A stretch of 64,000 nucleotides of DNA from Escherichia coli (GTDB taxonomy: Bacteria; Pseudomonadota; Gammaproteobacteria; Enterobacterales; Enterobacteriaceae), in NCBI RefSeq assembly GCF_048403405.1, contig NZ_CP183129.1; one strand, written 5' to 3'. The position numbers are program-made. Position 1 is the first letter of the stretch. Each line of letters starts with the position of its first letter. Of this stretch, positions 39,401-42,400 are shown piece after piece.

Positions 39401-42400
39401 AAGAAGTCGATAATACCGCCATTGCTGGGATAGCTCGCCCCTAGGCGCGCATAGGCATAACCGGAAAACATCGCCACAATACCGCCAAAAGCAAAGGCGA
39501 CCCAGGTCGAGGCTTCCATTAGCAACGCAGCCTGCCCCAGCAGCGCGAAGATCCCCGCCCCCACCATTGCCCCAATACCGATGGAAACGACGTTCCATAG
39601 ACCGAGGGGTTTGTTATCGTTATTACCTTCCGTGTTCATCATGATCAGCCCTTAAACACGTTATAGCCGAGTTGCTTAGCGACCGATGCCACCATTTTTT
39701 GACCGCGAACACTGTTACCTTCTTCGTCCAGCGGTGGTGAGAACGCGGCAATTCCCATCACGCCAGGGACGACCGCCAGAATACCGCCACCTACACCGCT
39801 TTTGCCCGGTAAACCAACGCGATACGCCCAGTCACCGGAGCGACCATACAGCCCTTCCATCATCATTTCAGCCAGAATGTACGGCACGTTGTCGGCCTGA
39901 AGAACGCGTTTATGCGTCAGCGGATTCACACCCCCCGCCGCCAGCGTCGCGCCAAGCGTTGCCAGTTCAACAGTATTGATGAGCGTGGAGCACTGACGGG
40001 TGTACACGTCACAGGCTTCCATTGCATCACAATAGAGATATCCGGCGGAGTACAGCAGCCAGGCAATGGCCCGGTTATGGAAGTTGGTTGTTTGTTCCGA
40101 CTGGTTTACTTCGTCAGAGAGCGCTACCTGCTCACCAGCCAGTTGTTGTTGGATATGTAAAATTCGCTGCCAGCGTTGTTCGGCATTTTCAGCGTTAATC
40201 AGGCTGGTGGTGGCAATAGCGCCAGCATTTACCAGTGGCGACAGCGGTTTACCGCCATGCAACTCTAAGGCGATAACTGAGTTAAAGGGCAATCCGGTCG
40301 GGTCAGCGCCAATTTTGTCCTGTACCGCCTGCGGGCCGACATCTTCTAACGCAAGGGCTAACGTACAGACTTTCGAGATGGATTCCAGCGCAAAGCGGTA
40401 ATCACTATCACCCGCGCGATAGATGTTGCCATCGCAGGTCACAATAGCCACTGCTGCCAGTTGACCAGGTACATTCGCCAGAAAGGGAATGTAGTCGGCA
40501 TTTTGTCCGCCGTTAAGTGAGTGAAATTGGGTGTAAGCCTGATCCACTGCCTGCTGTAATTTGTTTGCATCTAACATCTTTTGTTAACTCCTTTTTATAG
40601 ATGCGGGAGGTAATTCCTCACCCCGGTGCCGATTTTCAGGCATCCTGATTTAACTTAGCACCCGCAACTTAACTACAGGAAAACAAAGAGATAAATGTCT
40701 AATCCTGATGCAAATCGAGCCGATTTTTTAATCTTTACGGACTTTTACCCGCCTGGTTTATTAATTTCTTGACCTTCCCCTTGCTGGAAGGTTTAACCTT
40801 TATCACAGCCAGTCAAAACTGTCTTAAAAGGAGTGTTTTATGTCACAAACTATCGACCTGACCCTGGACGGCCTGTCCTGCGGTCACTGCGTTAAACGCG
40901 TGAAAGAAAGTCTCGAACAGCGCCCGGATGTTGAGCAGGCGGATGTGTCTGTCACTGAAGCGCACGTTACCGGGACTGCCAGTGCAGAACAGCTGATCGA
41001 AACCATCAAACAAGCGGGTTATGACGCATCTGTAAGCCACCCAAAGGCTAAACCGCTGGCGGAGTCATCAATCCCGTCGGAAGCACTGACAGCGGTTTCT
41101 GAGGCGCTTCCGGCAGCGACCGCCGATGACGATGACAGCCAGCAGTTGCTGCTGAGCGGCATGAGCTGCGCCAGCTGTGTCACCCGCGTACAAAATGCGC
41201 TGCAAAGCGTACCGGGCGTCACTCAGGCACGGGTAAACCTGGCGGAGCGTACTGCGCTGGTGATGGGCAGTGCCTCCCCACAAGATTTAGTGCAGGCGGT
41301 GGAAAAAGCGGGCTACGGCGCGGAAGCGATTGAAGATGACGCTAAACGCCGCGAGCGCCAGCAAGAAACCGCCGTCGCTACGATGAAGCGCTTCCGCTGG
41401 CAGGCGATTGTCGCACTGGCGGTGGGTATCCCGGTGATGGTCTGGGGGATGATCGGCGATAACATGATGGTCACCGCCGACAACCGCAGCCTGTGGTTGG
41501 TTATCGGCCTGATAACCCTGGCGGTAATGGTTTTCGCCGGCGGGCATTTTTACCGCAGTGCATGGAAAAGCCTGCTGAACGGCGCGGCGACAATGGATAC
41601 GCTGGTGGCGCTGGGTACGGGCGTGGCGTGGCTCTATTCGATGAGCGTCAACCTGTGGCCGCAGTGGTTCCCGATGGAAGCGCGACATCTTTATTACGAA
41701 GCCAGCGCGATGATTATCGGTCTGATCAATCTCGGCCATATGCTGGAAGCGCGCGCGCGTCAGCGTTCTTCTAAGGCGCTGGAGAAATTACTCGATTTAA
41801 CCCCACCGACGGCGCGCCTGGTCACTGACGAAGGTGAAAAAAACGTGCCGCTGGCAGATGTTCAGCCAGGTATGTTACTGCGCCTGACGACCGGCGACCG
41901 TGTGCCGGTAGATGGTGAGATTACTCAAGGCGAAGCGTGGCTGGATGAAGCGATGCTGACGGGCGAACCTATCCCGCAGCAAAAAGGCGAAGGCGATAGC
42001 GTCCATGCCGGGACAGTGGTACAGGACGGCAGTGTGCTGTTTCGTGCCAGTGCGGTCGGCAGCCATACTACGCTGTCACGGATCATTCGCATGGTGCGAC
42101 AGGCCCAGAGCAGCAAGCCAGAAATCGGTCAACTGGCGGATAAAATCTCCGCCGTGTTTGTGCCGGTAGTGGTAGTCATTGCGCTGATCAGTGCGGCAAT
42201 CTGGTATTTCTTTGGTCCGGCACCGCAGATTGTCTATACCCTGGTGATTGCCACCACGGTGCTGATTATCGCCTGTCCGTGTGCGCTAGGACTGGCGACG
42301 CCGATGTCGATTATTTCGGGCGTCGGGCGGGCGGCTGAGTTTGGTGTGCTGGTGCGGGACGCCGACGCGCTGCAACGCGCCAGTACGCTCGACACCGTGG

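What the first reader, a model, noticed from the sequence alone, without database searches (positions are those of the whole stretch)
40769..40799. CueR operator at copA now about 28 kb from cueR
The MerR-type dyad ACCTTCC-N6-GGAAGGT within a 19-bp spacer promoter is present upstream of copA. In K-12 the regulator gene lies about 3 kb away; here the T1SS island separates regulator and target, and also places cueR in an operon context. Copper homeostasis regulation could differ quantitatively in this strain.
Basis: partly seen in the sequence, partly recalled or inferred. Interest (0 to 1): 0.3.

Follow-up and report, generated by a model that had tools for sequence, protein, structure and literature searches.

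The report
Ordinary copA promoter; K-12 lost island
This is the textbook copper-sensor (CueR) binding site in front of the copper pump gene copA; its 28-kb distance from cueR reflects a known secretion/adhesin island (O-island 28) that this E. coli strain kept and K-12 deleted, and it probably changes copper control little.

Summary
Window 40769-40799 is the canonical CueR-dependent copA promoter: TTGACC, a 19-bp spacer, TAACCT. The dyad is ACCTTCC-N7-GGAAGGT, not N6. It matches the published CueR-binding oligo exactly, and the whole glsA-copA intergenic region differs from K-12 by one base. cueR (12029-12436, minus strand) starts 28.3 kb away, against 2.6 kb in K-12. Its ATG overlaps the stop codon of a HlyD-family gene.

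The intervening DNA is the known O-island 28 type I secretion/giant adhesin cluster. It is present in 959 of 5426 complete E. coli genomes, including O157:H7.

K-12-type genomes (4458 of 5426) share one 25.8-kb deletion. It leaves about 100 bp of the hlyD 3' end in front of cueR and removes half of the ybaT terminator. In other Enterobacteriaceae cueR usually abuts the operator.

A regulatory effect is possible but unsupported. CueR acts in trans and also controls cueO about 377 kb away. The operator and the 58 bp before cueR are unchanged. In published O157:H7 RNA-seq, cueR mRNA is about 6-fold above the island's first gene and barely responds to RstA loss. Known biology, low interest.

The parts
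40769..40774 (+). PcopA -35 hexamer TTGACC
   Evidence: identical in K-12; part of the published CueR-binding oligo
40772..40792 (+). CueR operator: 7-7-7 dyad ACCTTCC-CCTTGCT-GGAAGGT inside the 19-bp spacer
   Evidence: single exact match in the window; 0.11 expected at <=2 mismatches; N6 version absent; dyad kept next to copA in 75 of 80 Enterobacteriaceae species loci
40794..40799 (+). PcopA -10 hexamer TAACCT
40840..43344 (+). copA, Cu(I)-exporting P-type ATPase (834 aa)
   Evidence: ORF list; RefSeq annotation of the matching region in strain 7/2
39645..40577 (-). glsA (ybaS), glutaminase, divergent from copA
38350..39642 (-). ybaT, APC-family permease
38306..38338 (-). Intact intrinsic terminator of ybaT: 10-bp stem GCGCAGUACA/UGUACUGCGC at 38316-38338, then CUUUGUCUUU. 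Truncated in K-12-type genomes.
   Evidence: fold: dG -16.1 kcal/mol, z -4.1; the K-12 equivalent does not fold (z +1.0); alignment
38293..38306 (-). RstA box TAATTCAAATTACC upstream of tolC28, as mapped in O157:H7
   Evidence: exact match, 0.01 expected; box defined in PMC12758282
36657..38012 (-). tolC28-like type I secretion outer-membrane protein (451 aa, intact)
   Evidence: NCBIfam TIGR01844, 414.9 bits against cutoff 225
15771..36548 (-). Giant BapA/SiiE-related adhesin siiEA (6925 aa, uninterrupted ORF)
   Evidence: ORF list; RefSeq name in strain 7/2
13605..15767 (-). hlyB28-like type I secretion ABC permease/ATPase (720 aa)
   Evidence: NCBIfam TIGR03375, 837 bits against cutoff 693
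12433..13608 (-). hlyD28-like type I secretion adaptor (391 aa); its stop codon overlaps the cueR ATG (ATGA)
   Evidence: NCBIfam TIGR01843, 327.7 bits against cutoff 208.65; sequence
12437..12532 (-). Last 96 bp of hlyD28, the segment that survives as the relic upstream of cueR in K-12-type genomes. The proximal 58 bp are identical to K-12. It holds the cueR Shine-Dalgarno AGGAGG and presumably a cueR promoter.
   Evidence: PGAP annotates the relic as a frameshifted partial pseudogene
12029..12436 (-). cueR, Cu(I)-responsive MerR-family regulator (135 aa; N103 here and in O157, D103 in K-12)
   Evidence: 134 of 135 identical to K-12; NCBIfam NF007590 equivalog, 308 bits against cutoff 244
12533..38321 (.). 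The 25.8-kb segment present here and deleted in K-12-type E. coli (O-island 28 equivalent)
   Evidence: junction alignment; G+C 57-62% against about 51-53% in the flanks; island in 959 and K-12 junction in 4458 of 5426 genomes

Best explanation
The site is the canonical CueR (MerR-type) operator-promoter of copA. Shown from established work on PcopA: CueR binds the 7-7-7 dyad inside the over-long 19-bp spacer and, when loaded with Cu(I), distorts the DNA so that RNA polymerase can use the -35 and -10 elements. Shown here: the element is unchanged from K-12, and its 28-kb distance from cueR exists because this strain keeps the O-island-28-type cluster tolC28-siiEA-hlyB28-hlyD28 between ybaT and cueR. 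That is the older Escherichia arrangement. Most E. coli, K-12 included, carry one shared 25.8-kb deletion that left about 100 bp of the hlyD28 3' end as the cueR upstream region and cut the ybaT terminator in half. Further back, in most other Enterobacteriaceae, cueR starts 12-14 nt from the operator, divergent from copA. So in Escherichia the whole cueR 5' region was replaced by the end of hlyD28. Inferred: CueR is a diffusible trans-acting factor, and cueR is mainly transcribed from a promoter within or near the hlyD28 3' end. That segment is retained in all Escherichia loci examined here: the intact gene, an eroded island that still keeps hlyD28, the 96-bp relic in K-12-type genomes, and a diverged relic of about 55 bp in E. 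albertii. Copper induction of copA should therefore be essentially the same as in K-12. Any difference would come from what reads through into cueR: the T1SS operon here, the Cu/acid-induced glsA-ybaT transcript in K-12.
For: Operator anatomy and identity. CueR is 134 of 135 identical to K-12 and passes the NCBIfam equivalog cutoff. The island gene set and its position match O157:H7 OI-28. K-12 deletion scar. Allele counts: 959 genomes with the island, 4458 with the identical K-12 junction. Outgroups: E. whittamii and Escherichia sp. E1V33 have hlyD28-cueR. E. albertii has an independent deletion that leaves an intact ybaT terminator and a relic of about 55 bp. A further Escherichia genome has a patchwork-eroded island. 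In 43 of 80 Enterobacteriaceae species loci the operator ends within 20 nt of the cueR ATG, and about 30 others have inserts of 0.07-8.5 kb. The island G+C is foreign. CueR acts at long range on cueO, whose operator is about 377 kb from cueR in K-12. EDL933 RNA-seq: cueR FPKM 66.6/62.9 in wild type and 60.2/50.5 in the rstA mutant (0.85x); tolC28 10.7/12.0 and 4.0/4.9 (0.39x).
Against: No cueR transcription start site was found in the literature I could reach. No convincing sigma-70 consensus lies in the shared 100 bp upstream of cueR, so the 'own promoter' is inferred, not seen. The ATGA overlap and the lack of a clear terminator between hlyD28 and cueR allow co-transcription and translational coupling. 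The RNA-seq comes from one growth condition in O157:H7, where the adhesin gene is split, and FPKM values for hlyD28 itself were not in the files held. CueR protein is reported to rise with copper in K-12 (Yamamoto and Ishihama 2005, cited in PMC5329002). That could depend on ybaT read-through, which this strain's intact terminator would block.
Confidence: 0.8

Rival explanations
1. One reading: the island changes copper homeostasis quantitatively. The regulator gene is now 28 kb from its target, and cueR has become the last gene of the T1SS operon. CueR dosage would then follow RstA/Ca2+ control of the island rather than its K-12 inputs.
For: The cueR ATG overlaps the hlyD28 stop. Genes on that strand from tolC28 to cueR are contiguous or overlapping, apart from a 108-bp gap after tolC28. 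No consensus promoter lies just upstream of cueR. The K-12 deletion destroyed the ybaT terminator, so the two alleles do differ in what can read through into cueR. All five OI-28 genes, including hlyD28, fall 3-5-fold in an rstA mutant.
Against: cueR falls only 0.85-fold in the rstA mutant and its FPKM is about 6-fold that of tolC28. The operator, CueR (one residue differs from K-12) and the 58 bp before cueR are unchanged. CueR controls cueO from about 377 kb. About 30 of 80 Enterobacteriaceae species loci carry inserts of 0.07-8.5 kb between the operator and cueR, so separation is tolerated repeatedly. From established knowledge: CueR output is set mainly by Cu(I) occupancy, because both apo and holo forms occupy the operator. 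Strain 7/2 (island) and strain E2865 (no island) encode the same CueR protein accession.
Confidence: 0.17
2. The dyad is a chance palindrome or a degenerate, non-functional copy, and copA in this strain is controlled otherwise.
For: None found.
Against: It is an exact 21-bp match with 14 specified bases, 0.11 expected even at 2 mismatches. It is identical to the experimentally used CueR site and to K-12. It sits correctly in a 19-bp spacer 41 nt before copA, and it is conserved across 75 of 80 species loci.
Confidence: 0.01

Closest known systems
E. coli K-12 PcopA / CueR operator (Outten 2000; Stoyanov 2001; Philips 2015; oligo in PMC9004249)
   Same: Identical -35, 19-bp spacer, 7-7-7 dyad and -10. 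Identical 262-bp intergenic region except one A. CueR differs at one residue (N103 here, D103 in K-12).
   Different: cueR lies 28.3 kb away instead of 2.6 kb. cueR follows an intact hlyD28 gene rather than its 96-bp relic. The ybaT terminator is intact here.
O-island 28 locus of EHEC O157:H7 (tolC28-rtxA28/rtxB28-hlyB28-hlyD28; PMC12758282)
   Same: Same gene order and the same position between ybaT and cueR. Same hlyD-cueR ATGA overlap, same RstA box, and the same YadA-family islet after cueR.
   Different: About 95% nucleotide identity in hlyB/hlyD. The adhesin is one intact 6925-aa ORF here, but split or pseudogenised in O157. The OI-28 paper calls the island an acquisition and never mentions cueR, copA or copper.
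copA-cueR divergon of Salmonella, Citrobacter, Enterobacter, Klebsiella and others (PMC1526738)
   Same: Same operator dyad and the same copA-side promoter; orthologous CueR (82-91% identity) followed by ybbJ-qmcA.
   Different: There the operator ends 12-14 nt before the cueR start codon. Here homology stops right after the -35 hexamer (GGTCAAG on the cueR strand), and cueR has a completely different 5' region taken from hlyD28.
MerR/merT-type divergent regulator-target arrangement
   Same: MerR-family activator working through a dyad in a 19-bp spacer.
   Different: The regulator gene does not share the operator region, and no second operator lies near cueR. Operator-mediated autoregulation is therefore not expected in Escherichia.

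Membership tests
CueR/MerR-type operator-promoter (PcopA) | -35 and -10 hexamers separated by an over-long 19-bp spacer | tested here: met
   TTGACC 40769-40774, TAACCT 40794-40799, spacer 19 bp
CueR/MerR-type operator-promoter (PcopA) | Perfect 7-bp inverted repeat with 7-bp centre lying within the spacer | tested here: met
CueR/MerR-type operator-promoter (PcopA) | Identity with a sequence shown experimentally to bind CueR | tested here: met
   The 27-mer of PMC9004249 equals window 40769-40795; identical to K-12
CueR/MerR-type operator-promoter (PcopA) | Directly upstream of a Cu(I) P-type ATPase gene, with a cognate cueR in the genome | tested here: met
   copA at 40840; cueR passes NF007590 with 308 bits against cutoff 244
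CueR/MerR-type operator-promoter (PcopA) | Cu(I)-dependent activation in vivo | not testable with these tools
   Needs a reporter or transcript assay in this strain
O-island 28 type I secretion / RTX-adhesin island | TolC-family OMP, giant adhesin, ABC permease/ATPase and HlyD adaptor in this order on one strand | tested here: met
   NCBIfam hits above cutoff for TolC, LssB-type ABC and HlyD; RefSeq annotation siiEA
O-island 28 type I secretion / RTX-adhesin island | Chromosomal position between ybaT and cueR as in O157:H7 | tested here: met
   The O157:H7 strain 7636 locus has hlyB-hlyD-cueR with the same overlap; 94.9% identity
O-island 28 type I secretion / RTX-adhesin island | RstA box TAATTCAAATTACC upstream of tolC28 | tested here: met
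   Exact match at 38293-38306, minus strand
copA-cueR divergon (usual Enterobacteriaceae layout) | cueR start codon within about 15 nt of the operator, divergent from copA | tested here: not met
   28,346 bp here; 43 of 80 other species loci meet it
cueR as a member of the T1SS operon | Same strand, no intergenic gap | tested here: met
   ATGA overlap of the hlyD28 stop and the cueR start
cueR as a member of the T1SS operon | No internal promoter or terminator separating it from upstream genes | tested here: inconclusive
   Consensus scans find neither a good promoter nor a convincing terminator on the cueR strand; no start-site data found
cueR as a member of the T1SS operon | Expression level and regulation shared with the operon's first gene | tested here: not met
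   Published EDL933 RNA-seq: cueR about 65 FPKM, 0.85x in the rstA mutant; tolC28 about 11 FPKM, 0.39x. This is a different strain with the same layout.

The most novel reading that the evidence does not exclude
In the Escherichia ancestor, acquired DNA (glsA-ybaT and the T1SS island) came to lie between the PcopA -35 and the cueR start codon. This stripped cueR of its native operator-adjacent 5' region, and the 3' end of hlyD28 now serves as its promoter and ribosome-binding region. That would explain why every later loss of the island (the E. coli major allele, E. albertii, the eroded island in L008) spares at least the last ~55 bp of hlyD28. The K-12-type deletion would then have rewired cueR a second time. 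By cutting the ybaT terminator it lets the Cu- and acid-induced glsA-ybaT transcript run into cueR. That would give a copper-responsive boost of CueR which island-bearing strains such as this one lack, while their cueR could receive some RstA/Ca2+ input instead.
Probability: 0.3. Interest if true: 0.4.

Novelty: already known. Interest (0 to 1): 0.17.

Why it matters
For copper biology it matters little, because operator and regulator are the standard ones. The useful corrections are for annotation and evolution. (1) OI-28 is usually described as DNA acquired by pathogenic strains. The scar in K-12 shows that, within E. coli, absence of the island is the derived state and comes from one shared deletion. 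(2) The 'ybaT-cueR intergenic region' of K-12, in which a cueR promoter would be sought, is a decayed piece of a secretion gene fused to half a terminator. (3) People who delete OI-28 or hlyD28, as in PMC12758282, should check that cueR expression is not disturbed, since cueR overlaps hlyD28.

Tried and rejected
(1) I looked for a published cueR transcription start site or promoter. Searches gave nothing usable. Thomason 2015 is not held, and Conway 2014 has no supplement held. PMC5395161 on genomic distance does not discuss cueR in its main text.

(2) Consensus sigma-70 scans upstream of cueR in the window, K-12 and E. albertii gave no candidate shared between alleles. A TTGAAT-N16-TAACAA seen by eye in the K-12 relic lacks the invariant T6 and is not supported.

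(3) I tested for extra conservation of the hlyD28 3' end among four intact islands. There are 3 variable sites in the last 120 bp, against about 5 per 60 bp elsewhere, but another 60-bp window has 0. This is suggestive only.

(4) I looked for a second CueR operator near cueR or the island promoter. None exists in the 64 kb at up to 2 mismatches.

(5) I considered that cueR came in with the island. I rejected this because CueR is 82-91% identical to the orthologues of neighbouring genera and keeps the ybbJ-qmcA synteny.

Full report
**1. The observation**

The window is E. coli chromosome, inverted relative to K-12. At 40769-40799 the sequence reads TTGACC-TTCCCCTTGCTGGAAGGTT-TAACCT. That is a -35 hexamer, a 19-bp spacer and a -10 hexamer, ending 41 nt before the copA ATG at 40840.

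- The inverted repeat is ACCTTCC (40772-40778) and GGAAGGT (40786-40792), separated by 7 nt.
- The N7 pattern is found once and exactly. Allowing 2 mismatches, 0.11 matches are expected by chance.
- The CueR-binding copA promoter fragment used in PMC9004249 (TTGACCTTCCCCTTGCTGGAAGGTTTA) is identical to 40769-40795.
- The 262-bp glsA-copA intergenic region differs from K-12 by one extra A in front of the copA Shine-Dalgarno. It occurs in 5422 of 5426 complete E. coli genomes.

The element is real, canonical and invariant.

**2. Surroundings**

All on the minus strand, in order of transcription:

| Gene | Coordinates | Note |
|---|---|---|
| glsA | 39645-40577 | divergent from copA |
| ybaT | 38350-39642 | followed by a strong terminator hairpin, 38316-38338 plus T-tract (dG -16.1, z -4.1) |
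| RstA box | 38293-38306 | |
| TolC-family gene | 36657-38012 | |
| adhesin gene | 15771-36548 | 6925 codons |
| type I secretion ABC gene | 13605-15767 | |
| HlyD-family gene | 12433-13608 | |
| cueR | 12029-12436 | ATG overlaps the HlyD stop as ATGA |

CueR is 134 of 135 identical to K-12 (N103 here, D103 in K-12) and passes the NCBIfam equivalog cutoff. The operator centre lies 28,346 bp from the cueR ATG. In K-12 the figure is about 2,557 bp.

**3. What the island is**

It is the equivalent of O-island 28 of O157:H7. Gene order, position, hlyD-cueR overlap and downstream islet are the same. The hlyB/hlyD genes are 94.9% identical. The RstA box defined in PMC12758282 is present. That paper shows the island is an RstA- and Ca2+-activated T1SS/RTX adhesin system needed for early adherence. 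It never mentions cueR, copA or copper. The hlyB-hlyD segment is present at 80% coverage or more in 959 of 5426 complete genomes.

**4. Direction of change**

The 124-bp ybaT-cueR spacer of K-12 has two parts.

- The first part matches the sequence after ybaT as far as the ascending arm, the loop and four bases of the descending arm of the terminator (window 38322).
- The second part is joined to the last ~100 bp of hlyD28 (window 12532 downward). It carries 7 substitutions and a 1-bp deletion in its distal ~48 bp and none in the 58 bp next to cueR.

The K-12 version of the terminator no longer folds. PGAP annotates this relic as a frameshifted partial pseudogene lacking its N-terminus. An insertion cannot produce such a structure, so K-12-type genomes carry a 25.8-kb deletion (window 12533-38321). 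The identical junction is in 4458 of 5426 genomes, 4351 of them at 99% identity or more. It also occurs, with intermediate substitutions, in Escherichia sp. MOD1-EC7003.

Other states in the genus:

- E. whittamii and Escherichia sp. E1V33 have the intact hlyD28-cueR junction.
- E. albertii has an independent deletion, with an intact terminator, a different junction and a diverged relic of about 55 bp.
- Another Escherichia genome (L008) has a patchwork-eroded island.

**5. Deeper history**

A scan of one genome per species with CueR returned 80 loci.

- Outside Escherichia, copA and cueR are typically divergent neighbours. In 43 of 80 loci the dyad ends 12-14 nt before the cueR start codon.
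- About 30 loci carry inserts of 0.07-8.5 kb at this position, for example a haem-uptake cluster in several Citrobacter.
- Homology between E. coli and these genera stops right after the -35 hexamer. Nothing upstream of the E. coli cueR ATG matches the ancestral leader.
- The island G+C is 57-62% against about 51-53% for the flanks.

So the Escherichia ancestor had foreign DNA (glsA-ybaT and the island) between PcopA and cueR. The end of hlyD28 became the cueR 5' region, and most E. coli later deleted the island.

**6. Does it matter for copper regulation?**

Arguments that it does not:

- CueR works in trans. Its other classical target, cueO, has its operator about 377 kb from cueR in K-12.
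- The operator and the proximal 58 bp upstream of cueR are unchanged, and CueR differs from K-12 at one residue.
- The same CueR protein accession occurs in an island genome and an island-free genome.
- Separation by inserts is common in the family.
- In EDL933 RNA-seq (PMC6824119, supplementary file 2), cueR (Z0636) has FPKM 66.6/62.9 in wild type and 60.2/50.5 in the rstA mutant (0.85x). tolC28 (Z0608) has 10.7/12.0 and 4.0/4.9 (0.39x). cueR mRNA is thus more abundant than the island's first gene and nearly RstA-independent, which implies a separate promoter.

Arguments that it might:

- The ATGA overlap allows coupling to hlyD28.
- I found no recognisable promoter in the shared 100 bp and no published start site.
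- The two alleles differ in upstream read-through. The terminator is intact with the T1SS operon here. It is broken, with Cu- and acid-induced glsA-ybaT upstream, in K-12.
- CueR levels are reported to rise with copper in K-12 (cited in PMC5329002).

**7. Verdict**

The operator and the island are both already known. The small additions here are that the K-12 layout is a deletion scar and that the cueR upstream region in Escherichia derives from hlyD28. Interest is low.

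Noticed in passing
window 9420-12028: A 2.6-kb low-G+C (43%) islet lies between ybbJ and cueR. It encodes a YadA-family autotransporter adhesin (10333-11349, +), a lipoprotein (11403-11825, +), a small ORF, and a 120-aa hypothetical protein (9604-9966, -). In K-12 the cueR and ybbJ stop codons abut. The islet is also present in O157:H7, E. whittamii and Escherichia sp. E1V33, so it travels with the T1SS island allele.
   Followed up: partly
window 43345-43772: Between copA and ybaP, K-12 has REP repeats and ybaQ. Here a different segment of about 370 bp takes their place, and ybaQ is absent.
   Followed up: partly
window 38897-38913 (-): The intragenic sigma-54 site in ybaT mapped by ChIP-seq in K-12 (PMC4591121, site IS02; downstream gene listed as cueR, 679 bp away) is kept with one mismatch (CTGGCGCTGGTTTTGCT). 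Here its downstream neighbour is tolC28, not cueR.
   Followed up: partly
window 40826-40829: The only difference from K-12 in the 262-bp glsA-copA intergenic region is one extra A in the A-run just 5' of the copA Shine-Dalgarno (CTTAAAAGGAG against CTTAAAGGAG).
   Followed up: no
window 12128-12130 (cueR codon 103): CueR has N103 here and in O157:H7. K-12, strain 7/2 (island present) and strain E2865 (island absent) have D103. The residue lies in the dimerisation helix and does not track island presence.
   Followed up: partly
window 15771-36548 and 36657-38012: The giant adhesin is one uninterrupted 6925-codon ORF and the TolC-family gene is intact here. The adhesin is annotated as an interrupted pseudogene in O157:H7 strain 7636, and the TolC gene is frameshifted in strain 7/2.
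   Followed up: no
L012 2300-10000; L061 and L064: The spot between the PcopA -35 and cueR is a recurrent insertion site in Enterobacteriaceae. Several Citrobacter carry a 7.6-kb haem-uptake cluster there (TonB receptor, ChuX, radical-SAM enzyme, ABC importer). L061 has two CueR-type dyads and Pseudescherichia vulneris (L064) has three, one next to copA and one next to cueR in each.
   Followed up: partly
L008 6425-8887: One Escherichia species representative (labelled E. coli SCPM-O-B-8794) has a patchwork-eroded island: fragments of tolC28, the adhesin 5' end and hlyB28, plus an hlyD28 with a 2-bp insertion near its 3' end. This is a third, independent decay route.
   Followed up: partly
window 12044-12073 (+): A promoter-like match (ATGACA-18-GATAAT, 10 of 12) lies antisense inside the 3' end of cueR and is also present in K-12. 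It may be chance, kept only because the coding sequence is conserved.
   Followed up: no
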